Below, one piece after another: positions 5,318-37,971 of a DNA stretch of 53,479 nucleotides. Numbering within the stretch: the stretch's first letter is position 1; every line of letters begins with the position of its first letter. The notes below the pieces were generated by a model. That model made no database searches. It worked only from the letters and a program-made list of their open reading frames with translations, and was not told the origin of the DNA. Source of the stretch: Candidatus Doudnabacteria bacterium (lineage in GTDB: Bacteria > Patescibacteriota > Doudnabacteria > UBA920); the NCBI GenBank assembly GCA_023245895.1, contig JAHFJJ010000005.1:1-53479 (forward strand), written 5' to 3'. A program made the translations under genes and the position numbers.

Positions 5318-8300
5318 ATGTTAGAAGGTCTGAAAAATTTTGGGAAAAAAGTTAGGGGAATGTTCGGGGAGGACAAAAGTCATACCCGCCAGGAGAGAGG
5401 CAACCCGAGCGGCGCTGAGCAAACGCGTGACAACAGGAATACCGAAATAATCCACATGACGCCGGGGTTTGATGAAGTCTCCGGCCTGCCGGTTTTGGTG
5501 GAACAGCCTAAGACGCAAACCGAAACTCGGCTTCAACGGATTAATCCGAATGACAAAGCTATAGCGCTTAAAGGCCACAATCTTCCTGCCAAACGGGACC
5601 CAAATGCCCTGCAAGAACATCGCCAGGTGCTTTACGCGCGCCCTATTAACGGCTCCCAGCGGCAAATTGAAGGGGGCGGGCGAAAATTAATCGGTCCGGG
5701 AGAACCAGGTGCTGATTTGCCGGCGGTTGAACAATTTAAAAAACAAGACCACAGGGTCGTGATTGCTGACATTACTTCGATTGTAGACCGCTACGCCCGG
5801 ACTTTGGCAGAAAAAAAAGTCAGTGAGCGCATAAATAATTCCGGCTTGCTTAAAAAGTCCTGGGTTCGCTTGTCCGAGGCCGGCTATGTGGAAAAATATT
5901 ACCAGGAAGCCAAAGCGGAAATTTTAAAAAACAGGAATTTGCTTTCCGACATCCAGACCCGCTTAATGCATAAGAGCGAAGGCAAGGCTTTGCGCGCGGA
6001 CGCGGATGATGTTCATAATGAAATTTTAGACAAAGTCATTAGTACTTTTGTAGACGCTGACTTATTGGACAAGAAAACTCGAGGCCAGGAAGTTAAGGCC
6101 GAGCATGTGGACTTGGGAGCCGCCCAAAACGCCCGTTTGGACAGCGAGGCCGCCAGGTTAATTACAGACTACGCATTAGGCAACATTACCGACCAAAAAA
6201 CTTTTGACACGCAAGTGGAGCAAAGGCTGGTGCCAATCTTAGAAGGGGCCGGAGCCAAGCAAGGCAAAGATAGAATGTATACTTCCAGTCTTTTTGAAAT
6301 GGCCAAAGGCTATAAGCACCAAATGCAGGAAAAATTAAACTGTGTTGGCAAAGAATTTGGCCCGGAGCAAAAAGCTTATGTGGAAAGGTTTATTAAAGGC
6401 ACTTTACATTTGGACGTAAAATTGGGAGAAAAGGCTGCGGATTTGTACCAAGCACGTCCGGAAGGCGTTATGAAGTGGTATGAAAAGAGCGTGGACTGGC
6501 TACAGAAAGGGGCAATACTTAGCCCTGACAACGCGATAGGAGCTTTAATGTCCAGGATTACAGGAGGCAAGGATAACCAGGCCGCTGTTGGGCGTGTGGC
6601 AGGCAAGTTTTTTGCTAACCCAGTATTATATGCCGCCATAGGTAATGTGGCGGGTCGTGGCGCAGCCAAGGCTTTGGGAGGAGCGGCCGCAGTTGGGCTC
6701 GGGGTACTGGGAGGAGTTGCGTTAATGCCCGCGACTTTGGCTATTATAGGGTCCGGCATAGGCGCGGGGTTATACTTGGGGGCCAGAGCGGCCAGGGAAA
6801 AACGCAGGGATATTGCCAGAAGAGAACAGGAAGTTGTAATGGGATTGCGTAATAAAGAAACCCGCGATGTAGAAATGCACGACGTTGTACAGGCGGAAAA
6901 ACTTATTGAAGAATTAAAAAAATTACAGGTCGCGGACAAGCTTTTATCCAATGAAGAGAAAAAAATGGTGGGACAAATTCAGGCTCGTTTAGACCTGCAA
7001 GCCCAGCATGGAGTTGACTTAATAGGCGTTTCCAAAGAAACAAGCGAGCGTTACGGCGGAAAACTTCCTGCCGAGGTGGATTTGCGCCAGACCTTAAAAG
7101 ATTTTTGGCGTTCCAAAGGCAGTCAGTATGGCAATACTCCGGCAGAACAACTGGCCGCTTACAACCGTTTCCTAGGAGATGCTGAAAGGGAGCTTATTCC
7201 CCAAATAGAAAAGGTAGACAAAGAAAAAGCTGAAACTATCCGCAAATACAGGAACAGCGTTGCTCTTAAGGGCGCGTGTATTTCCATGGCGGCGGCGGCT
7301 TTGGGTCCGTTAGCGTATAAGGGCTTAAAACTCGGGTCTAATTTTGCTTTAGGCACGCATTTTGATGTATCTAAAGTAAGCTATCCGGAACAAGCTTTTA
7401 ACTGGTATAAAGAAAAATTTCTGGGCTTTCCTCATGAGGGGGCTTACGCCGGAATACTAAATAAGTTACCCATACCCGGCAGTAACGTAGCCTTAAATTT
7501 AGCTCCCGGATACGGCTGGGCCAACCATATAGTGGATGCGCACGGCAACCATGTGGTGGATTTGGTAGACCCCCACGGGCATCTTATCCCGGGCGGCAAC
7601 CACATTACTTTTGACTCGGCCGGCAATCTTACCAACCCCCATGGTTTAGATGCTTTAAAAGCCGCGGGCTACCAAATTACAGAAACCCACGGTTCGCTTG
7701 GGCATGGCGGTACAGGGGCTTATTCAGAAGCGGAACTTAGGGCTGACGGGTTTGATCATAATCCTAGAGCTGACTGGCATCATATTAAAGATTTCGACAG
7801 CCCAAGTAAAATTATATTCAATGGAAAAGAACTTCAGGCTTACAAGCATGTGCTGGCTAATGGCAACGAAAATTGGGATGTAAAAAAAATGTTAAATAAT
7901 TTGAGCGATAACGCCGAAATGGAGCACATAAGGGGCAGTGACTTTGGTATTGATACGGAAGGCAATGTAGACACCCAGTTGCAGGAATTAAGGGACCAAA
8001 TGGCCCGTTGGTTTTCAGATGCTCACGATGGTATTATTGCCAAAGGCGGGACAGAAGCGGACGCGCTTTTAGCCGGCAAAGCGGAAATTGCCAAGCACAT
8101 GGTTTTGCGAGTGGTTGATTCTTCGGGTTTAAGCAAGGTTGTTGGGAATTTTGATTCAAACGGCCATTTGGATTTACTGGAAAAGTATGCAAACGCCCCT
8201 TTTAAAGAAGTAGCTTTGGTTGACGACTCCGGCGCGCATCATATTTTAGCCACGGAAGTGACCGGTAAGGAACTGCTTAAAACTATTCCAACCGGCGGCA

Positions 8301-9487
8301 AGCTTGGTATGGTAGATATGCGTCCGCCGTTGGAGAACGGCGCGCCGTTTATTCTTGCCGGTGCCAGGCGTGAAACCGACGCAATGGCAGATAAAGCCAA
8401 AAAAGACGAAGAAGAAAAGAAGAAAGCAAAAGATGAGAAGGATAAAAAGAAGCACGGCGGGAAAGACCACGGCGGGCATGATCATAGCCATGGCGGGGAC
8501 CATGGACACGACCATGGCGATGAAAAAGAACGCATGGCGCATGCCTTTGAGGAAATTCAGGGCAAGTTGGATAAAAACGAAATTACCCAGGACGAAATTG
8601 TGGCTACGGCCAAAAAGTACAACCTTAACCCCATATATTTATTTACTAAGGCTTTGGAGTACAAGTCTGTTGACCACAAAAAACACGAAGCGGACATTAA
8701 GGCGGCTTCCAAAAAACACGGGGTCAAATTTACAGAAAACCAAGTGTCCGGTTCTATGCTAAGGGCGGCCCAGGGTGAAATTGTAAAACCTAATTCAGAC
8801 GATGAAATAATAGACGAGAATGTCCAACAGTTAATTAGGATGGAACAGGAAGAGTTGGGCCAAATGGCTGATGAAAAAATTAAGGCCGAAGCTTTGACTA
8901 ATAAAAAGGCCAAGAAGGGCGGGGTGAAAAAGAAGCCCGGGACAAAAGACGGCAATAAACCGGCAGGAGAAAAACCCGTGACGGATAAAAGTAAAGCAAA
9001 GGCCGGAGGCGAGGGTAAGAGAAACATACGGGAGAACGAAGCTTCTAAAAAATCGGAAAAGCAGGCTTTTATGAATATAAAGGACAGGGTGGAAGAGTTC
9101 AGCCGCCATAAAGTCCATTTTACCTATTCCGCCAATGAAAGTTTTGACCGCGAAAAGGTTACAACAGCCGTCGCTTTTGCTAAGGCGTTAGAAGAGTTGC
9201 CGAATTCCGTCCGCCAAAACGCTTTAAATAAAGTGAACAGAAGCAGAAGCGGTAAGCTGGAAAAAGGGTTGATTTTGTCTTTTGACGGTGTTGGCGGCCA
9301 GCCCCGGTTTGGCAAAGAAGATAAAATAGTCATTCCGCTTGGCACTAGCAAGGAAGATATTAAAAGATTTTTGGTAGATAAATTTGAAAGGGACAAAAAC
9401 GCCGGGCCTATTAGGAAAAAAGGCAATAGTAAACAACAAAACAACCGGCCTGAAAGAAGGAATAGTTCCCAAGCTAAAGTCGCATAG
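5318..9487 (+). CDS. giant orphan membrane protein (1389 aa)
   Basis: A single long ORF. Gly/Ala-rich TM hairpin around residues 410-490 (AAIGNVAGRGAAKALGGAAAVGLGVLGGVALMPATLAIIGSGIGAGLYLG). His-rich cluster HGGKDHGGHDHSHGGDHGHDHGD (nt 8453-8521). Lys-rich C-terminal third. A strong terminator follows. Confidence 0.85.
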   Translation: MLEGLKNFGKKVRGMFGEDKSHTRQERGNPSGAEQTRDNRNTEIIHMTPGFDEVSGLPVLVEQPKTQTETRLQRINPNDKAIALKGHNLPAKRDPNALQEHRQVLYARPINGSQRQIEGGGRKLIGPGEPGADLPAVEQFKKQDHRVVIADITSIVDRYARTLAEKKVSERINNSGLLKKSWVRLSEAGYVEKYYQEAKAEILKNRNLLSDIQTRLMHKSEGKALRADADDVHNEILDKVISTFVDADLLDKKTRGQEVKAEHVDLGAAQNARLDSEAARLITDYALGNITDQKTFDTQVEQRLVPILEGAGAKQGKDRMYTSSLFEMAKGYKHQMQEKLNCVGKEFGPEQKAYVERFIKGTLHLDVKLGEKAADLYQARPEGVMKWYEKSVDWLQKGAILSPDNAIGALMSRITGGKDNQAAVGRVAGKFFANPVLYAAIGNVAGRGAAKALGGAAAVGLGVLGGVALMPATLAIIGSGIGAGLYLGARAAREKRRDIARREQEVVMGLRNKETRDVEMHDVVQAEKLIEELKKLQVADKLLSNEEKKMVGQIQARLDLQAQHGVDLIGVSKETSERYGGKLPAEVDLRQTLKDFWRSKGSQYGNTPAEQLAAYNRFLGDAERELIPQIEKVDKEKAETIRKYRNSVALKGACISMAAAALGPLAYKGLKLGSNFALGTHFDVSKVSYPEQAFNWYKEKFLGFPHEGAYAGILNKLPIPGSNVALNLAPGYGWANHIVDAHGNHVVDLVDPHGHLIPGGNHITFDSAGNLTNPHGLDALKAAGYQITETHGSLGHGGTGAYSEAELRADGFDHNPRADWHHIKDFDSPSKIIFNGKELQAYKHVLANGNENWDVKKMLNNLSDNAEMEHIRGSDFGIDTEGNVDTQLQELRDQMARWFSDAHDGIIAKGGTEADALLAGKAEIAKHMVLRVVDSSGLSKVVGNFDSNGHLDLLEKYANAPFKEVALVDDSGAHHILATEVTGKELLKTIPTGGKLGMVDMRPPLENGAPFILAGARRETDAMADKAKKDEEEKKKAKDEKDKKKHGGKDHGGHDHSHGGDHGHDHGDEKERMAHAFEEIQGKLDKNEITQDEIVATAKKYNLNPIYLFTKALEYKSVDHKKHEADIKAASKKHGVKFTENQVSGSMLRAAQGEIVKPNSDDEIIDENVQQLIRMEQEELGQMADEKIKAEALTNKKAKKGGVKKKPGTKDGNKPAGEKPVTDKSKAKAGGEGKRNIRENEASKKSEKQAFMNIKDRVEEFSRHKVHFTYSANESFDREKVTTAVAFAKALEELPNSVRQNALNKVNRSRSGKLEKGLILSFDGVGGQPRFGKEDKIVIPLGTSKEDIKRFLVDKFERDKNAGPIRKKGNSKQQNNRPERRNSSQAKVA

Positions 9488-30570: not shown

Positions 30571-30610
30571 TTATCACTCCCCTTGACAGAGTGATAAAAA
30601 ATACTATAAT
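30571..30610 (+). promoter_or_regulatory. CIRCE-like operator overlapping the groESL promoter
   Basis: TTATCACTC-N9-GAGTGATAA (30571-30597) versus CIRCE TTAGCACTC-N9-GAGTGCTAA, with one symmetric change per arm. The N9 spacer contains the -35 TTGACA (30583-30588). 16 nt further on is TATAAT (30605-30610). Confidence 0.7.
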
Positions 30611-30626
30611 ATCAAATAAGATAATT

Positions 30627-30722
30627 AAGAACCAAGAATCAAGACCGCAAGAACCAAGGAAGAGCCAAGTTTGAAATTTTAAAACTTGGAATTTGCTTGG
30701 ATCTTGGCATCTTGGATCTTGG
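30627..30722. repeat. ~100-nt periodic long hairpin, family F4 (CCAAGA/TCTTGG blocks)
   Basis: AAGAACCAAGAATCAAGACCGCAAGAACCAAGG...AAATTTTAAAA...CTTGGATCTTGGCATCTTGGATCTTGG lies in the groES leader. Paired 6-nt blocks are separated by 2-3-nt mismatches. Confidence 0.8.
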
Positions 30723-30744
30723 AATTTACGACGAAGGAGTAGCT

Positions 30745-31050
30745 ATGAAAGTTAAACCTTTAGGCAACCGCGTTCTGGTAAAACAGCTTTCCAGCGAGGA
30801 AGTCACCAAGAGCGGCATTGTTTTGCCGGACACGGCGGATAAAGAAAAAAAAGCCCAGGGCAAAATTGTGGAATTGGGCAACGGCAGTGAAATAGCAGGA
30901 CTCGGCTTAAAAGTAGGCGACACTGTTGTCTTCGGCAAATACGCCGGGGAGGAAGTGGAAATAGACGAGGACGGCAAAAAAGAAGAATACAAAATTTTAT
31001 ATGTCGGGAAAGAGAAGGATGATAGCGATATTTTAGCATTAATTGAATAA
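30745..31050 (+). CDS. groES: co-chaperonin GroES
   Basis: MKVKPLGNRVLVK. GAAGGAG (30733-30739) lies 5 nt upstream. The ORF-track TTG start at 30697 lies inside the F4 hairpin. Confidence 0.95.
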   Translation: MKVKPLGNRVLVKQLSSEEVTKSGIVLPDTADKEKKAQGKIVELGNGSEIAGLGLKVGDTVVFGKYAGEEVEIDEDGKKEEYKILYVGKEKDDSDILALIE

Positions 31051-31152
31051 GAACCAAGAATCAAGATCGCAAGAACCAAAAAAGAACCAAGTTTAAAATT
31101 TTAAAATTTAGACCTTGGAATTTATTTGGATCTTGGCATCTTGGGTCTTGGG
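31049..31152. repeat. family F4 long hairpin between groES and groEL
   Basis: It begins at the last two bases of the groES TAA: (TA)AGAACCAAGAATCAAGATCGCAAGAACCAA...TTGGATCTTGGCATCTTGGGTCTTGG. Confidence 0.8.
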
Positions 31153-31171
31153 GTTTACATAAAAGGAATTT

Positions 31172-32848
31172 ATGAGCAAAATTATCAAATATGGTTTAGA
31201 AGCCAAGCAGGCTATTAAAGCCGGCGTGGACAAAGCCGCGGACGTGGTTAAAGTTACTTTGGGCCCCACAGGGCGGACGGTTATTTTGGATAAAGGCTAC
31301 GGCTCTCCATCTATAACAGATGACGGTGTTACCGTGGCCAAGGACATTGAACTTGAAGACAAATTTGAAAACGTGGGCGCGTCTTTAATCCAGGAAGTGG
31401 CCAATAAAACTAATGACGCGGCTGGCGACGGGACCACCACGGCTACGGTTTTGGCGCAAAAAATGATAGAAGACGGTTTTGAAATGTTAAAGCGCAACCC
31501 TTACAAAGCCAATGACATGAAGCGCGGCATGGACAAGGCCGTAAAATTTGTTGTCGCGGAACTTAACAAAGTTAAAAAAGAAGTTAAAGGCAAAGAAGGC
31601 ATTGAGCAGGTTGCGACTATCTCATCGCTCGACCCGGAAGTCGGAAAACTGATTGCAGAAGCCATGGAAGAAGTCGGCCACGACGGCGTTATTACAGTAG
31701 AAGAAGGCCAGACCGTGGGCTTACAAAAAGAAGTCGTAAAAGGTATGCGCTTTGATAAAGGCTTTGTTTCGCCGTATATGGTAACTAACGCCGAAAGAAT
31801 GGAAGCAGTTTGGGAAGACCCGTATATCCTCATCACCGACAAAAAAGTTTCATCTGTCCAGGAAATTTTACCTTTGCTTGAAAAGGTGGCCCAAAGCGGC
31901 AAAAAAGAAATTGTCATTATTGCCGATGAAGTGGAAGGTGAAGCCTTAACTACATTTATTTTAAATAAACTGCGCGGCACCTTTAGCGTGCTGGCGGTTA
32001 AAGCCCCGGGTTTTGGCGACAGGCGCAAGGAAATGCTGCAGGATATTGCGGTCTTAACCGGCGGCACGGTAATTACGGAAGACTTGGGCTTGAAGCTGGA
32101 TAAAACCGAAGTTGAACATTTGGGCAAGGCGCGCAAAGTTATTGCCACCAAAGAAAATACCACTATTGTGGACGGCCATGGCGACAAAAAGAAAATTGAG
32201 GACAGAGTAAACCAAATTAAAGCCGAACACAAAGAATCTACATCGGATTTTGACAAAGAGAAACTCCAGGAACGCATGGCCCGTTTGGCCGGCGGCGTAG
32301 GCGTAATTAAGGTTGGCGCTTTTACGGAAACCGAAATGAAAGCCAAGAAGTTTAAGATTGAGGACGCTTTAAATGCCACGCGCGCGGCAGTTGAAGAAGG
32401 CATTGTAATTGGCGGCGGCGCGGCTTTGGCAAAAATTGCGCCTTTGCTTGAGCAGGCGGTTTCGCAGGGAAATCATTTTTCCGAAAACGAAAAATTAGGC
32501 GCCATGATAATCCGTAAAGCTTTAGAAGCTCCCTTAAGGCAGATTGCCGAGAATACCGGCGTTGAACCATCAGGAATCGTAAGTTATGTCCAGTCTTCCG
32601 GCGAGCATGAAGGCTATGACTTTATGGACTTTGACGAAATGAACTGGGCCAAGGGCAAAAAAGATTTAATGAAGGCTGGCATTGTAGACCCGGTTAAAGT
32701 TACCAGGCTTGCTTTGGAAAACGCGGTATCAATTGCCTCCACTTTAGTTACAAGTGAAGCCATAGTCGTAGACAAACCGGAACCGAAATCCGAAGCTCCT
32801 GCCGGCGGCATGCCCGGTGGAATGGGCGGCATGGGGGGGATGTATTAG
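31172..32848 (+). CDS. groEL: chaperonin GroEL
   Basis: 558 aa with [12 protein letters not shown] and a C-terminal [14 protein letters not shown] tail. Confidence 0.97.
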
Positions 32849-32892
32849 GACTAGTGAATAGTGCTTAGTGCATAGAGAATAGGAAAAGACAA

Positions 32893-32918
32893 AAGCCTCG
32901 TTTAAAGCGGGGCTTTTT
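32893..32918 (+). terminator. intrinsic terminator after groEL
   Basis: Stem AAGCCTCG / CGGGGCTT (one G-U pair) with a 7-nt loop, followed by TTTTT. Confidence 0.75.
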
Positions 32919-32982
32919 GATTAGCTGGTAAAATTTTTTGCTCATAAATAAGACAAAAATAGGACATATTGGCTAAATAGGC

Positions 32983-33011
32983 TTGACAAAAGGGTCATTT
33001 TAGAGTATACT
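32983..33011 (+). promoter_or_regulatory. near-consensus sigma70 promoter with no ORF behind it
   Basis: TTGACA at 32983-32988, exactly 17 nt, and TATACT at 33006-33011. The next CDS start is 930 nt downstream. Confidence 0.65.
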
Positions 33012-33017
33012 GTCTAG

Positions 33018-33506
33018 TTACGCTAAATCCTCCTCCGCTAAAGCTGCTGCGGACAAGAAAGGCGTACATCTTTAAAAATCCAATAATCTATATGTTTTTG
33101 CAGGAGAACATACGGATATCGCCCTTACATCAATCTTCACCAAGTTGATTGCAGAATAAAATTTTCACATCATACAGATATTTTAGAGAATCATTTATCC
33201 TAGGACTACTTTGATGGAGATTGATGTAAGGACGCTTATGCTCCTAATTTCGTTAACCCGGATTGGGGGCGCTAATGAGCCCGTTTCAAAAATTCATTTC
33301 GGCTGCAATTCTAAAATTTTGGCTGCAAAACCTTCATAGAAGCTCACCGATGCGCAAGGCATCGCCTCGCTTCTCTTCAGGTTTTTCGCTCAAAATTTTA
33401 GAATTTCGCTACGAAAGCAATTTATGAAACGGACTCTTAAAAAAGCCGTATACTCCACAAGAATATTTTTACTAACGTTCTTAAGTGTTTGAGTTTACGG
33501 TTTTTT
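33018..33506 (+). ncRNA. candidate orphan structured ncRNA (or first part of a very long leader)
   Basis: There is no ORF of 60 aa or more on either strand across 32849-33908, and no SD+ATG by eye. The predicted TSS is ~33018. Structures: a long-range stem 33123-33136/33218-33231 (14 bp perfect), a ~160-nt extended hairpin (33277-33436), and a terminator-like hairpin CCGTATACTC/GAGTTTACGG plus T6 (33446-33506). It matches no RNase P, tmRNA, SRP or 6S motifs known to me. Confidence 0.35.
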
Positions 33507-33942
33507 AATTCACATTAATTAAATTATTAATAGTGAATTAATCCGCCGAAGCTTTAGCGAAGGCGGATGTTAAATATATCGAATCTGCGAATGGGACGAA
33601 TCAACGAATGGCTACGAATGCAGACAGAAGATTGCTTATACAGTCGTGAGGCTTAGGAGGGTAAAACTTTATAGACATCTGATGATGTCGTGACCCGCAT
33701 CTCTAAGACTCACTATTGTGGAAGTAATTAGCTAGTAGTAGGTAGTATGTAGCAAGAATTAAGGCAAGGAGTATGGCGGCAAAATAGTTATCTAGGTTGT
33801 CGCCAAACTCCTTCTCTTAAAAAATTAATACTCTGAGGGCCTTAGGCCCTTTTTGTTTTGGGGACTTAAGGCCTTCAGAGTAGGCACGGGCACTTTGAAA
33901 AAAGTGCAGTGATTTATTTTGAGAGGAGGTTAAGGAGGGTAG

Positions 33943-34548
33943 ATGGAGGATTCGACGATAGACAATCAGAAAGAAAATACGAAAGAGCTTCGGCCTTTTT
34001 TTGTTTTGAGCGGCACGGGGCTAAGGTCTTTCCATGTCGACGTTACACGATTGATATCCAGGCAACTTCTTGTGGAAGTTGTATTGCCTGGGCTCATGGA
34101 TGAGGCGCAGGCGATGCTTGACAACGAACGGCGTGCAAGAGAGGCTGCGGAAGAAGAAGTCCGGGGTCTGGGCAGGTTTGTGAAACGTTTTGAGCTTATG
34201 GCGTCTCAGATGCTTTACTCTGGACGGGATTCCTCAAGGCGTGCAGACAGAGTCCGGGCAATTACACTTGTACAAGCTGGAGACCCCAAGGTTCCGGACG
34301 ACCAGATTGTGTTCTTTTTCCCTCGGGGGGAGAAGCCTCAGGTTGCCGCTCCGGTGCCCGCTAAAGCGGCGTCAAAACGGCGGGGAAGAAAGGGCAAGCG
34401 CAAGTGCGGCGTGTGCCAGAGCGCAGAACACGACGCGCGCAACTGCCCGACTAAGCCTTCACCGGCTCCGGAACCGCCAGCGGAAAAACGCGCGGTCAAG
34501 AAATCCGCGAACGCGAAGAAGAAACCGGGACGCAAAAAAAAGAAGTAG
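33943..34548 (+). CDS. CCHC zinc-knuckle protein with a Lys/Arg-rich tail (201 aa)
   Basis: AAGGAGG (33932-33938) lies 4 nt before the ATG. CGVCQSAEHDARNC matches C-x2-C-x4-H-x4-C (nt 34405-34446) and uses all three Cys of the protein. It is flanked by KRRGRKGKRK and KKKPGRKKKK. Confidence 0.8.
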   Translation: MEDSTIDNQKENTKELRPFFVLSGTGLRSFHVDVTRLISRQLLVEVVLPGLMDEAQAMLDNERRAREAAEEEVRGLGRFVKRFELMASQMLYSGRDSSRRADRVRAITLVQAGDPKVPDDQIVFFFPRGEKPQVAAPVPAKAASKRRGRKGKRKCGVCQSAEHDARNCPTKPSPAPEPPAEKRAVKKSANAKKKPGRKKKK

Positions 34549-34655
34549 TTCGGTAGTACGCCGACTGCGAATGGGGGAGTTTTTAAGTGAGTAATCATTT
34601 AGAAATTCCCCCAAAATTTTTAAACAAGTTATAATAGTAAGCGGGATTATTCCCG

Positions 34656-34735
34656 TCCCAAAATCTGCCAGCGAAACGCGTATCCGTCCTTTTAAGGATG
34701 GGTTCCTGCACGGGTTTCGTCGGCAGTTTTTGGGA
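34656..34735 (+). repeat. conserved intergenic hairpin, family H (copy A1)
   Basis: TCCCAAAATCTGCCAGCGAAACGCG...CACGGGTTTCGTCGGCAGTTTTTGGGA. It lies between a T-type hairpin (34572-34613) and the SD of the next gene. It contains the spurious ORF-track ATG at 34698. Confidence 0.7.
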
Positions 34736-34754
34736 AACACAACAGGGAGGAATT

Positions 34755-35030
34755 ATGGATATGCTTTACGTTTTACGTTTTGCTTTTATTTTAGGTTTAG
34801 CATCTGGCTTGTTTGCCAAGCTCGTGCTTAAGGAAAAGCAAAAAAAGTCGCTATGTCGGCTTTGTCTGTTAGCTGCAATTTTGTCAGTGATTGTGTGCTG
34901 CGAGCCTAAAGGAGCCGGGCAGTTATTATGGTGCATTGTTGCCGGTACGATAGCCCATTTTTGGGGCGCGGTTGGGTTTATAAATGTGCACCAATGGGTC
35001 GAGAAACGCAATAAGGGACAAACTATTTAA
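34755..35030 (+). CDS. small membrane protein (91 aa)
   Basis: GGGAGG (34745-34750) lies 4 nt before ATG 34755. Three hydrophobic segments, Cys-rich (CRLCLL, CCEPKG). Confidence 0.7.
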   Translation: MDMLYVLRFAFILGLASGLFAKLVLKEKQKKSLCRLCLLAAILSVIVCCEPKGAGQLLWCIVAGTIAHFWGAVGFINVHQWVEKRNKGQTI

Positions 35031-35044
35031 GTGGTTTGTCCCTT

Positions 35045-35099
35045 GTCAAAATTTGCCAGTGAAGATTACGCGGGGGGTTTCGTAGGCAATTTTTGGGAG
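35045..35099 (+). repeat. conserved intergenic hairpin, family H (copy A2)
   Basis: GTCAAAATTTGCCAGTGAAG...GGTTTCGTAGGCAATTTTTGGGAG. It shows a compensatory change relative to A1 (CTGCC/GGCAG versus TTGCC/GGCAA). A hairpin spanning the stop codon precedes it (35013-35044). Confidence 0.7.
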
Positions 35100-35124
35100 C
35101 GAATTTTTTGCAAAGGAGGTATAA

Positions 35125-35331
35125 ATGAGCAGGCAAGTTAAACTGCCGGTGGTTCTATTCGCGGTTTCTTCATTCATTTGTTTTTTAACGCTGGCAGTAT
35201 CGGAAATTGCCCTATGCAACCGCATTGAGCACGGATGGTATGAGCCCATACTGCTTTTGCTGGCATACTTTACCGCAGTTTCCGCATACACAATAGCGGA
35301 AAAAGATAAGCCTGAAAAAAGGCAACTTTAG
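35125..35331 (+). CDS. small membrane protein (68 aa)
   Basis: AAGGAGG (35113-35119) lies 5 nt before the ATG. Two TM helices. Confidence 0.7.
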   Translation: MSRQVKLPVVLFAVSSFICFLTLAVSEIALCNRIEHGWYEPILLLLAYFTAVSAYTIAEKDKPEKRQL

Positions 35332-35343
35332 GAGGAACAAAGA

Positions 35344-35622
35344 GTGTGGACTTTTGTTTTGTGTTTTGTCTTTGGCATGGCTTTTGTGTTTTTGCACTTG
35401 GATCGCAATGCATCGCCTTTCCTTAAGAAGTATGCCTTTGTGGCCTTTCCTGTTGTAGTCTTGGGCTCGGCCATGTTGGTTGAACCTAAGGCCGCAGATA
35501 GGTTGGCTATTCTTACGCTCTTTAATATGTTGTTTGTGTTCGTAGGCATAATTGTAGCAGTTGTGGTGGGCCTGATTTTTAACCGGCGGGGCAAGACGCC
35601 GCGAACCAATACTCCGCGGTAA
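35344..35622 (+). CDS. small membrane protein (92 aa)
   Basis: AGGAGG (35330-35335, overlapping the previous stop) lies 8 nt before the GTG. Three TM helices and a basic tail. Confidence 0.7.
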   Translation: MWTFVLCFVFGMAFVFLHLDRNASPFLKKYAFVAFPVVVLGSAMLVEPKAADRLAILTLFNMLFVFVGIIVAVVVGLIFNRRGKTPRTNTPR

Positions 35623-35642
35623 AGCCAAAAACGGCTACCCCT

Positions 35643-35683
35643 AACGAGGCATAAGCGCCGAGCGCTTAGCCTCGTTCTTTTTT
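35643..35683 (+). terminator. intrinsic terminator closing orphan array A
   Basis: Long stem AACGAGGCATAAGCGC / GCGCTTAGCCTCGTT followed by CTTTTTT. Confidence 0.85.
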
Positions 35684-35691
35684 ATCCGGGT

Positions 35692-35720
35692 TTGACTAAA
35701 ATATCTTTTTTAGCTATAAT
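35692..35720 (+). promoter_or_regulatory. sigma70-type promoter of rpmF-nusB
   Basis: TTGACT at 35692-35697, 17 nt, and TATAAT at 35715-20 (35715-35720). An F1-like leader hairpin TTCACCCCTCG...CTCGGGGTGAA follows (35750-35794). Confidence 0.6.
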
Positions 35721-35811
35721 TGTTTCACTTTATAATTTTTAAATTTAATTTCACCCCTCGACTATCCGCCAAAGGCGGATTCGCTCGGGGTGAATTTTCT
35801 GGAGAAAATTC

Positions 35812-35982
35812 ATGGGCGTCCCTAAAAAGCACAAAACCCGCAGCGGCCGCAACCAGCGCCGCAGCCACCACGCTTTAAAAGCAAAATCTTTCGCGGTTTG
35901 CAAAAATTGCGGGCAACCGGTTATGCCGCATTTGCCTTGCAAAAATTGCGGGTATTATAAAGGCAGGAAAGTTACTAAATAA
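35812..35982 (+). CDS. rpmF: 50S ribosomal protein L32
   Basis: Hand translation gives MGVPKKHKTRSGRNQRRSHHALKAKSFAVCKNCGQPVMPHLPCKNCGYYKGRKVTK* (56 aa, below the ORF-track cut-off). It has the typical L32 N-terminus and a CxxC...CxxC ribbon. GGAG lies 7 nt upstream. Confidence 0.9.
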   Translation: MGVPKKHKTRSGRNQRRSHHALKAKSFAVCKNCGQPVMPHLPCKNCGYYKGRKVTK

Positions 35983-36118
35983 GAACCAAGACCCAAGAAA
36001 ACAAGAATCAAAAAAGAACCAATTTTTTCCGCCGGAGGCGGATCCGCCACTGGCGGAAAATTTAAAATTTTAAACCTTGGAATTTAGTTGGGTCTTGGCA
36101 TCTTGATTCTTGGTTCTT
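35981..36118. repeat. family F4 long hairpin between rpmF and nusB, with a nested F5-type insertion
   Basis: It starts in the rpmF TAA: AAGAACCAAGACCCAAGAAAACAAGAATCAAAAAAGAACCAA...TTGGGTCTTGGCATCTTGATTCTTGGTTCTT. The loop holds CCGCCGGAGGCGG and CCGCCACTGGCGG mini-hairpins. Confidence 0.8.
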
Positions 36119-36125
36119 TAATTTT

Positions 36126-36551
36126 ATGGCTAACAGGCACCTATCACGCACAATAGCAATGCAATCCCTCTTTGAATGGGATTTTAACGGACGCGATGAA
36201 GACTTGGCAGGTATTGTAAAAAACCATATTAAGGAATTTTCGGGAGCCAACGAAGAGAGTAGTTTTATTTTTGAACTGGCGGACGGCGTTCAAAAAAATT
36301 TGCCTGCCATAGATGAAATTATTACCAAGCACGCGCCGGAGTGGCCCATAGACCAAATTCCGCCCGTTGACAGGAACGTCCTGCGCATTGGCGTTTACGA
36401 ACTAATGTTTTTAAAACAAGTGCCGCCCAAGGTAGCAATTAACGAGGCGGTGGAGCTGGGCAAAACATTCGGCGGAGAGTCATCCGGGAAATTTGTAAAT
36501 GGCGTGCTTGGCGCGCTATACAAAGAAGCGGGGATAGAAGAGAAGGCATAG
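36126..36551 (+). CDS. nusB: transcription antitermination factor NusB
   Basis: [13 protein letters not shown] and [12 protein letters not shown]. 141 aa. Confidence 0.9.
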
Positions 36552-36613
36552 CCCCTACTAAAATATCTGCCTACGGCAGGCAGGCGAAACTTAAACTAAA
36601 ATATTAAACTAAC

Positions 36614-36638
36614 AGACCTGCTATGGCGGGTCTTTTTA
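36614..36638 (+). terminator. intrinsic terminator after nusB
   Basis: Stem AGACCTGC / GCGGGTCT (one G-U pair) followed by TTTTT. Confidence 0.7.
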
Positions 36639-36854
36639 GTATTTAGTAGAAGTTTCCATAATATGAAAACCTTGTAACAAAAGCCAATTTTCGCCGTTAT
36701 AAAGTGTGAGGATAAAATTTTGGGCTCAAACTGGCAATCTTTTTTCAAATTTGCTATACTGATAATAGATTTTGCCAGATATATAAAAATAAATTAATAA
36801 GCCCCATAAAGGCGCCTGCCTGCCGGTAGGCAGGGGGAAAAAAGGATAAACATT

Positions 36855-37139
36855 ATGAATAAACTACAACTTACAGAACAATTAGCCGCAAAATTAAGCA
36901 TTACCCACAGCGAAGCCGAAAGGTTTGTAAATACTTTTGTCGGCATGATTTACGACAAACTCCGCGAAGGCGACAAGGTCAACATTTCCGGTTTTGGCCA
37001 GTTTAGCGTTTCCCACCGTGCTTCCAGGATTGGTGTAAACCCGCGCAATCCATCGCAAAAGATAACCATACCTGAACTCAACACCCCAAAGTTTAAAGCC
37101 GGCGAAGCGTTTAAGGAAGCGGTTAAGTTAAGACCATAA
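36855..37139 (+). CDS. hup: HU family DNA-binding protein
   Basis: GFGQFSVSHRASRIGVNPRNPSQKITIP beta-arm motif. 94 aa. TGC-TATACT promoter at about 36760-36768. Confidence 0.92.
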   Translation: MNKLQLTEQLAAKLSITHSEAERFVNTFVGMIYDKLREGDKVNISGFGQFSVSHRASRIGVNPRNPSQKITIPELNTPKFKAGEAFKEAVKLRP

Positions 37140-37186
37140 TTAGACAAATCAACACGAATCAGAAACGGATTAACACGGATACAAAA

Positions 37187-37211
37187 AGCCCTTTCTAGAG
37201 AGGGGCTTTTT
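37187..37211 (+). terminator. intrinsic terminator after hup
   Basis: Stem AGCCCCT... / ...AGGGGCT followed by TTTTT. Confidence 0.75.
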
Positions 37212-37263
37212 AAGTGCCGGCTATGCCCTTGACAAAACGTATGTTTTGTCATATTATGGGATT

Positions 37264-37536
37264 ATGAAGTATTTTGATTGGGATGAAGAGAAAAATAAGC
37301 GTTTAAAGGACGAAAGGGGGGTGGGCTTTGAAGATATTACCTTAGCTTTTGCTGAAGATCGTGTATTGGATGTTCTTGAGAGTCCTAATAAGCAAAAATA
37401 CCCAACGCAAAAAATGTATGCGGTAAATATTGGCCAGTATGTATATTTATGTCCTTTTGTGGAAGAAGATGAAAAAATTTTTTTAAAGACAATTTTTCCA
37501 AGTCGTAAAGCAACTAAAAAGTACTTAAAAATTTAA
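37264..37536 (+). CDS. brnT: BrnT family toxin (DUF497)
   Basis: MKYFDWDEEKNKRLKDERGVGFEDI matches the BrnT N-terminal signature (FEWDxxKNxxNxxKHGVSFEEA type). ATG 37264 lies 7 nt after the -10 (TTGACA 37229-37234, 17 nt, TATTAT 37252-37257), making it a leaderless candidate. Confidence 0.8.
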   Translation: MKYFDWDEEKNKRLKDERGVGFEDITLAFAEDRVLDVLESPNKQKYPTQKMYAVNIGQYVYLCPFVEEDEKIFLKTIFPSRKATKKYLKI

Positions 37537-37551
37537 TTTATTAATAATTTT

Positions 37552-37833
37552 ATGAAATATATTGAACTGGACCCGGAAGAAAAAGCATTACTTAAGGCCT
37601 ACGAACAGGGTAAGTTTAAGTCTGCCCCCAATCTTAAAAAGGAAATTAAACGTCTAGGAGATTATGCCCGCGCTTCTTTAGATAAGACTAAAAATATAAA
37701 TTTAAGGATTTCAGAGGCGGATTTGTTAAAAATTAAATCCCTAGCTGTGGGAAAAGGCATTCCTTACCAGACATTACTGGCGTCGCTTATTCACCAGTAT
37801 TCCGCCGGAAAAATAGAAACCCGGGTTTTATAA
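37552..37833 (+). CDS. brnA: BrnA-type antitoxin (ribbon-helix-helix)
   Basis: 93 aa, directly downstream of brnT. C-terminal RHH-like segment NINLRISEADLLKIKSLAVGKGIPYQTLLASLIHQY. Confidence 0.75.
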   Translation: MKYIELDPEEKALLKAYEQGKFKSAPNLKKEIKRLGDYARASLDKTKNINLRISEADLLKIKSLAVGKGIPYQTLLASLIHQYSAGKIETRVL

Positions 37834-37897: not shown

Positions 37898-37971
37898 GCG
37901 GAATTCGTATAATGGTAGTACGCTAGCCTTCCAAGCTGGTGGCACGGGTTCGATTCCCGTATTCCGCTCCA
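37898..37971 (+). tRNA. tRNA-Gly (anticodon UCC), CCA encoded
   Basis: Hand-folded cloverleaf. Acceptor GCGGAAT/ATTCCGC, D-stem GTAT/GTAC, and anticodon stem CTAGC/GCTGG with loop CTTCCAA. T-arm ACGGG-TTCGATT-CCCGT, then TCCA. A terminator hairpin follows. Confidence 0.9.

What the first reader, a model, noticed from the sequence alone, without database searches (positions are those of the whole stretch)
33943..34548. Bacterial protein with a retroviral/eukaryotic-type CCHC zinc knuckle and poly-basic tails
Residues 155-168, CGVCQSAEHDARNC, match C-x2-C-x4-H-x4-C exactly. These are the only three cysteines in the 201-aa protein. The knuckle is flanked by KRRGRKGKRK and a Pro-rich, Lys-rich tail ending KKKPGRKKKK, as in nucleocapsid-like single-strand nucleic-acid chaperones.

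zf-CCHC knuckles are overwhelmingly eukaryotic or retroelement-associated and rare in bacteria. The N-terminal 130 residues are unrecognisable. The gene heads orphan array A and lies directly downstream of the ORF-free structured region, so an RNA partner is conceivable. That link is speculation.
Basis: partly seen in the sequence, partly recalled or inferred. Interest (0 to 1): 0.65.

Follow-up and report, generated by a model that had tools for sequence, protein, structure and literature searches.

The report
Orphan CPR protein with zinc knuckle
A small gene in an uncultured groundwater bacterium (Patescibacteria/CPR) encodes a real but almost unique protein that joins a long helix to a retrotransposon-like CCHC zinc knuckle and a lysine-rich tail, so it probably binds nucleic acid, but only one distant relative exists and its function is untested.

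Summary
ORF 33943-34548 (+) encodes 201 aa. Its only three cysteines and one of its two histidines form CGVCQSAEHDARNC (res 155-168), flanked by KRRGRKGKRK and a Lys/Pro-rich tail.

The gene looks real. It has an SD site, a folded leader hairpin and a terminator-like hairpin. A positional orthologue, P0003 (172 aa, on locus L082), sits downstream of groES-groEL in a related genome.

That orthologue is about 30% identical overall. It keeps all four metal ligands (spacing C-x2-C-x5-H-x4-C), the H-[DN]-A-R-[NS]-C-P core, the basic tail and an N-terminal helical region.

No other relative turned up in roughly 1.8 billion representative proteins, 114 Doudnabacteria loci, or phage, plasmid and defence libraries.

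The knuckle resembles a plant copia Gag zf-CCHC (50% over 26 aa). It fails the Pfam thresholds and lacks the aromatic residues typical of nucleocapsid knuckles.

The pre-knuckle basic patch is not conserved in the orthologue.

The upstream "ORF-free structured region" holds an independent conserved small-RNA-like element. It occurs in more than 110 related loci that lack this gene, so no specific RNA partnership is supported.

Best reading: a clade-restricted, fast-evolving, probably oligomeric nucleic-acid-binding protein in a hypervariable island. Function is inferred, not shown.

The parts
33829..33882 (+). Leader hairpin about 60 nt upstream of the start codon (arms TACTCTGAGGGCCTTAGGCCC / GGACTTAAGGCCTTCAGAGTA). 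Its inner part, GAGGGCC-TTA-GGCCCTT followed by TTTGTTTT, can alternatively form a terminator-like hairpin.
   Evidence: Inverted repeat I6. Region 33820-33950 folds at -52 kcal/mol, z = -6.1. A homologous hairpin with the same outer arms lies upstream of the orthologue at about L082 3695-3742. Terminator-like site at 33835-33851.
33925..33939 (+). Two Shine-Dalgarno GGAGG motifs (33925-33929 and 33934-33938) ahead of the ATG at 33943.
   Evidence: Read directly from the sequence. The orthologue has GGAGG just upstream of its ATG.
33943..34548 (+). Coding sequence of the 201-aa zinc-knuckle protein (pI 10.2, 22.5 kDa), stop codon included.
   Evidence: Positional orthologue P0003 on L082. Nucleotide identity by codon position is 0.43/0.54/0.32.
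34033..34278 (+). Conserved N-terminal helical region, res 31-112. It contains the motif [VI]D[VI]TR.I, one long helix (about res 41-94) with a heptad-like hydrophobic pattern from about res 66-90, and a second helix (about res 98-112).
   Evidence: Alignment with P0003: 27% identity over res 31-127. AlphaFold2: long helix at pLDDT 78-93 when the domain is modelled alone, and H40-93/H97-111 in the full-length model. The heptad reading is my inference.
34375..34404 (+). Pre-knuckle basic patch KRRGRKGKRK (res 145-154). It is not conserved in the orthologue.
34405..34446 (+). CCHC zinc-knuckle motif CGVCQSAEHDARNC (res 155-168).
   Evidence: Ligands conserved in P0003, with 53% identity over res 153-169 against about 30% overall. 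50% identity over 26 aa to a PF00098 knuckle of a copia Gag.
34447..34545 (+). Pro- and Lys-rich C-terminal tail (res 169-201). The elements PEP...KKSA...KK are shared with the orthologue.
34572..34623 (+). Terminator-like hairpin (19 pairs) plus an A/T-rich tail, 24 nt after the stop codon. It separates the gene from the small membrane-protein ORFs downstream.
   Evidence: A comparable GC hairpin follows the orthologue's stop codon in L082 (read).

Best explanation
This is a genuine protein-coding gene restricted to a narrow clade, in the chromosome of a Doudnabacteria-like CPR/Patescibacteria bacterium. It sits in a hypervariable island between a conserved small-RNA-like element (downstream of groESL) and rpmF-nusB-hup.

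The protein has three parts:
- An N-terminal region dominated by one long amphipathic helix, inferred to be a coiled-coil oligomerisation module.
- A disordered Pro-rich linker.
- A C-terminal module made of one CCHC zinc knuckle and a lysine-rich tail.

Inferred mechanism: the three Cys and one His chelate one Zn2+ to shape a small knuckle. Together with the cationic tail, the knuckle binds nucleic acid with little sequence specificity. Oligomerisation through the helix makes the binding multivalent, so the protein would act as an architectural or chaperone-type nucleic-acid binder. Whether it prefers RNA, ssDNA or dsDNA is undetermined.

Shown: the ORF, the motif, its conservation, the synteny, the rarity of the family and the transcription-unit signals. 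Inferred: zinc binding, oligomerisation, nucleic-acid binding and biological role.
For: Gene reality:
- SD motifs and an ATG start.
- The same ORF, in the same orientation, lies downstream of groES-groEL in L082. GroEL is 94% identical between the two loci; this protein is about 30% identical.
- The conserved C-terminal knuckle requires the whole frame to have stayed open.
- Nucleotide identity by codon position is 0.43/0.54/0.32.
- The leader hairpin is conserved and a terminator-like hairpin follows the stop.

Knuckle:
- All four ligands and H-[DN]-A-R-[NS]-C-P are conserved. Identity is 53% over res 153-169, against 4-31% in the other segments.
- Apart from the orthologue, the only hits in the exhaustive search are eukaryote-type multi-knuckle and copia Gag proteins. 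The matched Gag segment is a PF00098 zf-CCHC at 41.7 bits and aligns at 50% identity over 26 aa.
- The profile's best matches in the PDB are single-knuckle MoMuLV NCp10 and Lin28, at non-significant E-values.

Charge: net +17 in the last 56 residues here and +9 in the last 27 of the orthologue.

Helix: pLDDT 78-93.

Context: an ordinary CPR chromosome (FtsZ, RNR, ComEC, RelA/SpoT, Fpg, MetK). There are no phage, plasmid or defence relatives.
Against: - There is no experimental or expression evidence. Metatranscriptome contigs from the same study do not map even to groEL, so they are uninformative.
- PF00098 is not matched and PF21890 is below its cut-off.
- The knuckle lacks the aromatic residues that, from established knowledge of retroviral NC, stack on unpaired bases.
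- The orthologue has a one-residue insertion between Cys2 and His, and lacks the pre-knuckle basic patch.
- With only two sequences, conservation statistics are thin. The codon-position test is biased because the alignment was made at the protein level.
- The AlphaFold models are of low overall confidence (mean pLDDT 54 and 69).
- Outside about 50 positions the protein has diverged nearly as far as unconstrained sequence would. Third-position identity is 0.32, against 0.58 in groEL.
Confidence: 0.5

Rival explanations
1. The protein is conflict-related cargo of a hypervariable or mobile island, for example a remnant of an unknown CPR phage or element, or an anti-phage or host-interaction factor. 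The knuckle and tail would target foreign or host nucleic acid, and rapid divergence would reflect an arms race or replacement by xenologues.
For: - The groEL-to-rpmF interval carries different, unrelated small ORFs in each related genome.
- The gene is present in only two lineages and absent from relatives with 91-92% GroEL identity.
- Divergence is extreme relative to groESL.
- GC is above the local background in both genomes: 0.55 against about 0.45, and 0.48 against 0.42.
- A MITE-like palindromic element sits 500 nt upstream.
Against: - No integrase, transposase or phage genes are nearby.
- There are no hits in PHROGs, PADLOC, IMG/VR, INPHARED phages or PLSDB plasmids.
- The leader hairpin and position are shared by both orthologues, which favours vertical descent in situ.
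- The higher GC can be explained by the Ala/Arg/Gly/Pro-rich composition.
Confidence: 0.15
2. The protein is an H-NS/Lsr2-like nucleoid-structuring protein, a special case of the main reading. The coiled coil forms oligomers and the C-terminal basic module binds AT-rich duplex DNA and bridges or silences it.
For: - The architecture is a helical N-domain, a flexible linker and a small basic C-terminal module.
- An RGR tripeptide lies in KRRGRKGKRK. From established knowledge, Lsr2 and H-NS use (R/Q)GR in the DNA minor groove.
- The genome is AT-rich at about 45% GC.
Against: - The RGR patch is not conserved in the orthologue.
- There is no sequence or fold similarity to H-NS, Lsr2, MvaT or Rok.
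- A canonical HU gene is already present 2.3 kb downstream.
- CCHC knuckles are typically single-strand binders (background knowledge).
Confidence: 0.12
3. The Cys/His cluster is a structural or protein-protein interaction knuckle, or a zinc or redox sensor. The basic tail would serve another role such as membrane or ribosome association, and nucleic-acid binding would not be the function.
For: - The base-stacking aromatic positions of NC-type knuckles are missing.
- The knuckle is below the Pfam thresholds.
- The gene lies near rpmF, and ribosomal protein L32 itself carries a Cys cluster.
Against: The combination of a strongly cationic tail and a knuckle conserved in both members is most simply read as polyanion binding. 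There is no operon link to rpmF, which has its own promoter at 35692-35720, and three ORFs lie in between.
Confidence: 0.1
4. The protein is a dedicated partner of the structured RNA encoded immediately upstream.
For: The RNA-like elements at 33235-33509 and about 33644-33722 lie adjacent to the gene. The same order, element 1 then the gene, is seen in L082.
Against: Element 1 occurs in 122 loci of related bacteria. Only three of those carry the gene: the window, L001 (an identical copy of the window) and L082. Element 1 has its own terminator. Element 2 is absent from L082, judging by eye from the sequence.
Confidence: 0.05
5. The ORF is spurious and not translated.
For: It is an orphan with no expression data. 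Overlapping alternative ORFs exist.
Against: A same-frame ORF with the C-terminal motif conserved is present in a genome whose non-coding flanks have largely diverged. It has a strong SD site and a codon-position pattern.
Confidence: 0.03

Closest known systems
zf-CCHC zinc knuckle (Pfam PF00098) of LTR-retrotransposon and retroviral Gag/nucleocapsid. The closest sequence found is the knuckle of a Tanacetum 'TNT 1-94' copia polyprotein (P0004). The closest solved structure is MoMuLV NCp10.
   Same: - The spacing is C-x2-C-x4-H-x4-C.
- A basic run lies immediately before the knuckle, and 'CP' plus a basic or Pro-rich segment follows it.
- 13 of 26 residues are identical to the copia knuckle region: SKRRGRKGKRKCGVCQSAEHDARNCP against SRSKSRGGRLKCYICQSEDHLKRNCP. 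That segment is a bona fide PF00098 hit.
- Like NCp10, it has a single knuckle with basic flanks.
   Different: - There is no PF00098 hit for the window protein.
- There is no aromatic residue after Cys1 or after His, and no Gly before His.
- The orthologue has x5 spacing.
- There is no capsid, protease or RT context. The gene is chromosomal in a CPR bacterium.
- The N-terminal domain is unrelated to Gag.
Lin28 second zinc knuckle (Pfam PF21890)
   Same: This is the only Pfam model that aligns to the knuckle: residues 153-176, E = 0.0033 for the full protein and 0.0004 for the C-terminal 51 aa.
   Different: The score of 18-21 bits is below the 27-bit gathering cut-off. There is no cold-shock domain, and there is one knuckle rather than a tandem pair. 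The orthologue P0003 does not hit the model.
H-NS/Lsr2-type nucleoid-associated proteins (an analogy of architecture only)
   Same: An N-terminal helical, probably oligomerising region, a flexible linker and a small basic C-terminal binding module. The window protein contains an RGR tripeptide.
   Different: There is no sequence or structural similarity. The binding module is a Cys3His knuckle, which those families lack. The RGR is not conserved.
ORF1 proteins of non-LTR retrotransposons (a coiled coil plus a nucleic-acid-binding module, some with CCHC knuckles). This is an analogy from background knowledge.
   Same: A long coiled-coil-like helix followed by a basic nucleic-acid-binding C-terminus with a CCHC knuckle, which is a chaperone-type architecture.
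   Different: No homology was detected. There is no ORF2, RT or endonuclease, and no repeats or target-site duplications around the gene.

Membership tests
zf-CCHC zinc knuckle (PF00098) | Ligand spacing C-x2-C-x4-H-x4-C | tested here: met
   CGVCQSAEHDARNC at res 155-168. The sole homologue has C-x2-C-x5-H-x4-C, a one-residue insertion.
zf-CCHC zinc knuckle (PF00098) | Score at or above the family's curated HMM threshold | tested here: not met
   PF00098 is not reported even at E <= 10. The only hit is PF21890 at 18 bits (20.9 bits for the C-terminal fragment), against a 27-bit cut-off.
zf-CCHC zinc knuckle (PF00098) | Typical non-ligand residues: an aromatic or hydrophobic residue after Cys1, Gly before His, and an aromatic or hydrophobic residue after His (background knowledge of NC knuckles) | tested here: not met
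   These positions are Gly156, Glu162 and Asp164 in the window protein, and Gly, Lys and Asn in P0003.
zf-CCHC zinc knuckle (PF00098) | Metal ligands conserved among homologues | tested here: met
   C, C, H and C are all invariant in the two-member alignment. The knuckle segment is 53% identical, against about 30% overall.
zf-CCHC zinc knuckle (PF00098) | Binds one Zn2+ through Cys3His | not testable with these tools
   This needs metal analysis of recombinant protein. The AlphaFold pLDDT over the knuckle is only about 57-60.
Retroviral/retroelement nucleocapsid-like chaperone | Part of a Gag or ORF1 protein of a retroelement (capsid, RT or integrase context) | tested here: not met
   The neighbours are groESL, small membrane ORFs, rpmF, nusB and hup. 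The window encodes housekeeping CPR genes and no RT was found among the ORFs scanned.
Retroviral/retroelement nucleocapsid-like chaperone | Basic segments flanking the knuckle on both sides | tested here: inconclusive
   Both flanks are basic in the window protein. In P0003 only the C-terminal flank is basic.
Retroviral/retroelement nucleocapsid-like chaperone | Single-strand nucleic-acid binding and annealing activity | not testable with these tools
   This requires EMSA and annealing or strand-exchange assays.
H-NS/Lsr2-like nucleoid-structuring proteins | Homology to the H-NS, Lsr2, MvaT or Rok domains | tested here: not met
   There are no Pfam, NCBIfam, PDB-sequence or Foldseek matches.
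H-NS/Lsr2-like nucleoid-structuring proteins | N-terminal coiled-coil oligomerisation domain | tested here: inconclusive
   A long helix (about res 41-94, pLDDT 78-93) is predicted from a two-sequence alignment. The heptad pattern is my reading. No oligomer prediction or experiment is available.

The most novel reading that the evidence does not exclude
A previously unseen class of bacterial nucleic-acid-binding protein, so far confined to one small Doudnabacteria clade. A retroelement-type CCHC knuckle, either evolved independently or acquired, is fused to a new coiled-coil domain. The protein would act as an oligomeric RNA/DNA chaperone or silencer in an ultrasmall CPR cell, possibly autoregulating through the conserved hairpin in its own leader.
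Probability: 0.15. Interest if true: 0.6.

Novelty: new variant of a known kind. Interest (0 to 1): 0.38.

Why it matters
If the protein really binds zinc and nucleic acid, it would be a rare bacterial example of a retroelement-style CCHC knuckle, placed in a new domain architecture. It would also add a lineage-specific nucleic-acid-binding factor to the largely uncharacterised gene pool of CPR/Patescibacteria.

The case also shows how a hypervariable slot between groESL and rpmF in these reduced genomes accumulates fast-evolving small proteins.

The impact is limited. The family has two known members, no expression data and no cultured host. The result is a testable curiosity and does not bear on a long-standing open question.

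Tried and rejected
Homologue hunting:
- Three word-indexed searches (single proteins and the two-sequence profile) found only the two proteins themselves.
- An exhaustive phmmer search over 1.84 billion representatives found P0003 plus two eukaryote-type knuckle proteins.
- Pattern and tblastn scans of genome contigs and IMG/VR found nothing.
- tblastn against INPHARED phages and PLSDB plasmids found nothing.
- hmmsearch and regex scans over six-frame ORFs of 196 loci found only the known pair.
- Direct comparison with the unrelated small ORFs that occupy the same slot in relatives found nothing.
- There are no paralogues in the window.

Family libraries: PHROGs, NCBIfam and PADLOC gave nothing meaningful.

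Structure:
- The full-length AlphaFold2 model has mean pLDDT 54, and the N-domain alone 69.
- Foldseek against the PDB gave 0 matches.
- I did not run fold searches on the low-confidence full-length model, because the matches would be meaningless.

Expression and population variation:
- The DNA runs hold the identical sequence, with no variants inside the ORF, so no dN/dS could be computed.
- Metatranscriptome contigs from the same study map nowhere in 30600-37200, so expression cannot be judged.

RNA families: Rfam found nothing for the upstream region, in the window or in L082.

Literature: two searches found nothing on CCHC knuckles in Patescibacteria or on bacterial knuckle families.

Rejected ideas:
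- Signal peptide or secreted effector: there is no hydrophobic N-terminus.
- Eukaryotic contamination or a chimeric contig: an identical context was assembled in several samples, and the orthologue has the same synteny.
- Retroelement Gag remnant: there is no RT or capsid context.
Full report
**1. Observation**

- A script located C-x2-C-x4-H-x4-C at residues 155-168 (CGVCQSAEHDARNC). It also confirmed that the protein has only three cysteines (155, 158, 168) and two histidines (31, 163).
- KRRGRKGKRK precedes the motif. The last 56 residues have net charge +17 and seven prolines.
- Given the composition, the chance of the exact motif is about 1.4e-6. In 2.0 million residues of six-frame ORFs from 196 loci there is no other exact match.
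- An identical 3-kb stretch was assembled in other samples. DNA runs from a groundwater study hold it.

**2. Is it a gene?**
- Two GGAGG motifs lie 4 and 13 nt upstream of the ATG.
- A terminator-like hairpin of 19 pairs follows the stop codon.
- A very stable hairpin (33829-33882) lies about 60 nt upstream. The region folds at -52 kcal/mol, z = -6.

The word-indexed protein search found only the protein itself. The exhaustive phmmer search of 1.84 billion representatives found one full-length relative, P0003 (172 aa, E = 6.8e-5, aligned over residues 31-192).

P0003 is encoded on a 4.5-kb groundwater contig (L082), directly downstream of groES-groEL and after an 830-nt gap. This is the same position and orientation as in the window.
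- GroEL is 94% identical and GroES 90% identical between the two loci. groESL DNA is 80% identical, while a neighbouring methyltransferase is only 41% identical.
- BLASTP between the two proteins gives 28% identity, E = 2e-13. MAFFT gives 30%.
- Identity is uneven: 13% (res 1-30), 27% (31-127), 4% (128-152), 53% (153-169, the knuckle) and 31% (tail).
- The best-conserved segment is at the C-terminal end, so the whole reading frame must have stayed open in both lineages.
- Codon-wise nucleotide identity is 0.43/0.54/0.32 for positions 1/2/3. This is a coding-type pattern, with the caveat that the alignment was made at the protein level. groEL gives 0.93/0.97/0.58.
- Outside roughly 50 positions, the protein has therefore diverged about as far as unconstrained sequence would.
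- The leader hairpin is also recognisable upstream of P0003, with the same outer arms (TACTCT.A ... T.AGAGTA) and changed inner pairs.

I conclude that this is a real, rapidly evolving gene.

**3. How widespread is it?**

Nothing further was found by any of these:
- word searches with P0003 or with the two-sequence profile;
- degenerate-pattern scans of 185,579 species genomes and of IMG/VR;
- tblastn against phage and plasmid collections;
- PHROGs, NCBIfam and PADLOC.

I then used a conserved non-coding element next to the gene (see section 6) as a handle. This collected 114 further loci, almost all labelled Doudnabacteria, 'Saccharibacteria' MAGs or Patescibacteria.
- A profile search and a regex search over all their six-frame ORFs found the protein only in the window/L001 and L082.
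- Relatives with 91-92% GroEL identity (L102, L112/L125) lack it.

The interval between groEL and rpmF (L32)-nusB-hup is syntenic in its flanks but hypervariable in content. It ranges from about 0.2 to about 4 kb, with unrelated small ORFs, a hydrolase-like protein or a transpeptidase-like protein in different genomes. The three small membrane-protein ORFs that follow the gene in the window (34698-35622) likewise have no counterparts in relatives.

The window itself is ordinary CPR chromosome: FtsZ, class II-type RNR, ComEC, RelA/SpoT, Fpg, MetK and transketolase.

**4. What the protein looks like**

Pfam gives only a sub-threshold match of residues 153-176 to PF21890 (Lin28 second knuckle). 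It scores 18 bits, or 20.9 for the isolated C-terminus, against a cut-off of 27. PF00098 is not reported, and P0003 hits neither model.

The two-sequence profile against all PDB sequences lists only knuckle proteins, at non-significant E-values: MoMuLV NCp10 at E = 1.2, a CCHC protein 7c45 and Lin28.

The other two significant hits of the exhaustive search align to the knuckle only.
- P0002 is a metagenomic multi-knuckle protein with repeated C-x2-C-x4-H-D-R-R-x-C-P.
- P0004 is annotated as a TNT 1-94 copia polyprotein of Tanacetum.
- P0004's matched segment is a bona fide PF00098 zf-CCHC at 41.7 bits.
- It aligns to the window protein at 13/26 identities: SKRRGRKGKRKCGVCQSAEHDARNCP against SRSKSRGGRLKCYICQSEDHLKRNCP.

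The resemblance to retroelement knuckles therefore goes beyond spacing. However, the window protein has Gly, Glu and Asp where canonical knuckles carry an aromatic residue after Cys1, Gly before His, and an aromatic or hydrophobic residue after His. P0003 has an extra residue between Cys2 and His (CGNCGKPAKHNARSC). The pre-knuckle basic patch is not conserved. The post-knuckle PEP...KKSA...KK tail is conserved.

AlphaFold2 from the two-sequence alignment is poor overall (mean pLDDT 54). It does predict a long helix at residues 40-93 and a second at 97-111. Modelling the N-domain alone raises the long helix to pLDDT 78-93. Foldseek against the PDB finds nothing.

Hydrophobic residues at 66/69/73/76/80/83/87/90 follow an a/d heptad spacing. 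This is my reading, and both sequences agree in the alignment, so a coiled-coil oligomer is plausible but unproven. There is no signal peptide or membrane segment.

**5. Mechanism**

The most economical reading is a modular nucleic-acid binder:
- a coiled-coil-like N-domain for self-association;
- a disordered Pro-rich linker;
- a Cys3His zinc knuckle plus cationic tail for largely non-specific binding of a polyanion.

That would make it an architectural or chaperone-type protein. I cannot say whether it prefers RNA, ssDNA or dsDNA.

What is shown: the ORF, the motif, ligand conservation, synteny, rarity and the transcription-unit signals. Zinc binding, oligomerisation, nucleic-acid binding and any cellular role are inferred.

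Rivals, each detailed in its own section:
- conflict-related or mobile cargo of the hypervariable island;
- an H-NS/Lsr2-like DNA bridger, a sub-case of the main reading;
- a knuckle that does not bind nucleic acid;
- a dedicated partner of the upstream RNA;
- a spurious ORF.

**6. The 'ORF-free structured region' and the RNA-partner idea**

The 1.1-kb gap is not featureless. A near-consensus promoter (TTGACA-17-TATACT, 32983-33011) is conserved in L082.

A hairpin, AUGCUCCURAUUUCG-loop-CGRAUUGGGGGCRC, followed by an A-rich linker and a long terminator hairpin with a U-run, is shared with L082, L005, L007, L002 and L003.
- A degenerate pattern for the hairpin finds it in 52 metagenome and 62 genome loci.
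- In all 82 loci where groEL is visible, the hairpin lies downstream of groEL on the same strand. It is often only 190-270 nt upstream of rpmF.
- The terminator stem covaries, for example GC/AU/CG/UA at one pair.
- The invariance of the 5' hairpin is partly an ascertainment effect of the search pattern.
- Its three invariant U-G pairs would be A-C mismatches on the other strand, which argues for a +-strand RNA.
- Rfam 15 has no match.

This element occurs in 122 loci, and only the window, L001 (an identical copy of the window) and L082 carry the knuckle gene. It is therefore not a dedicated partner.

**7. Comparison and novelty**

- The knuckle works like, and looks like, a retroelement zf-CCHC. 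Membership in PF00098 is not established: the spacing and ligand conservation are met, but the HMM threshold and typical residues are not, and zinc binding is untestable here.
- It is not a nucleocapsid or Gag, because there is no retroelement context.
- The overall architecture is analogous to H-NS-type proteins or non-LTR ORF1 proteins, but no homology is detectable.
- I file it as a new variant of a known kind (a zinc-knuckle, basic-tail nucleic-acid-binding protein) with a novel N-terminal domain and an extremely narrow distribution.
- That CCHC knuckles are rare in bacteria is background knowledge that I could not quantify here. The exhaustive search returned no other bacterial protein, which is consistent with it.

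**8. Verdict**

- Interest is moderate to low (0.38). This is a genuine, testable curiosity in microbial dark matter, with two members only, no expression data and no mechanism shown.

Noticed in passing
window 33235-33509 (hairpin 33238-33270; terminator hairpin about 33445-33509); also L082 3413-3528, L005 11518-11625 and more than 110 other loci: A conserved small-RNA-like element lies between groEL and rpmF in Doudnabacteria/Patescibacteria. It has a near-invariant 5' hairpin (GCUCCURAUUUCG-loop-CGRAUUGGGGGC, with three fixed U-G pairs), an A-rich linker and a covarying long terminator hairpin plus a U-run, about 95-110 nt in total. It has no Rfam match, and it is present whether or not the knuckle gene is there. 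Its function is unknown. Variable gene cargo always follows it, so it may mark an insertion hot spot.
   Followed up: partly
window 33277-33436; L160 1322-1482 (opposite orientation); L102 9803-9962: A 160-nt imperfect palindrome with 25-nt terminal inverted repeats interrupts the window's copy of the RNA element. The same element sits at the same site in the opposite orientation in L160 (84% identity). Another copy lies between nusB and hup in L102 (77%). A contig without the insertion exists in run X1. L112/L125 have a 40-nt hairpin at the same site. It looks like a MITE-like mobile element.
   Followed up: partly
window about 33644-33722, then purine-rich 33733-33790 and hairpin 33829-33858: A second conserved stem, CGTGAGGCTTAGG...CTCTAAGACTCACTATTGTG, has compensatory changes relative to L110, L102, L117 and L085 (GTGGACCTTAG/CTAAGATCCAC and similar). 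It may be a second small RNA downstream of the first. By eye I did not see it in L082.
   Followed up: partly
window 33570-33620; L082 2975-3012 and 3524-3553: Short periodic repeats follow the terminators: CGAAT five times at 8-10-nt spacing in the window, and CGCTGA four times at two sites in L082. The window copy has several-fold higher depth in the metagenome runs and matches in other loci, so it is a dispersed repeat.
   Followed up: no
window 34656-34735 and 35075-35098: A 26-nt-arm inverted repeat lies directly upstream of the first small membrane-protein ORF. Its 3' arm is repeated (92%) upstream of the second ORF, so the same 5' arm could pair with either. This could be a shared leader or regulatory structure for the orphan membrane ORFs at 34698-35030 and 35125-35331.
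   Followed up: no
window 32849-35811 compared with L002, L004, L005, L007, L009, L102, L110, L112, L115: The groEL-to-rpmF interval is a hypervariable slot of 0.2-4 kb. It is filled with unrelated lineage-specific small ORFs in each genome, while the flanks groES-groEL and rpmF-nusB-hup stay syntenic.
   Followed up: partly
window 37246-37536 and 37552-37833, next to tRNA-Gly at 37898-37971: A pair of small ORFs lies just upstream of tRNA-Gly(UCC). On the contig encoding the same protein (no DNA held for comparison), the ORFs in the corresponding position after hup carry weak precomputed Pfam hits to BrnT toxin and CopG-type antitoxin, so this may be a toxin-antitoxin pair.
   Followed up: no
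window 1931-4921 and 5318-9487: Two very large ORFs (996 and 1389 aa) have no Pfam match at E <= 1e-5. They may be giant CPR surface or orphan proteins.
   Followed up: no
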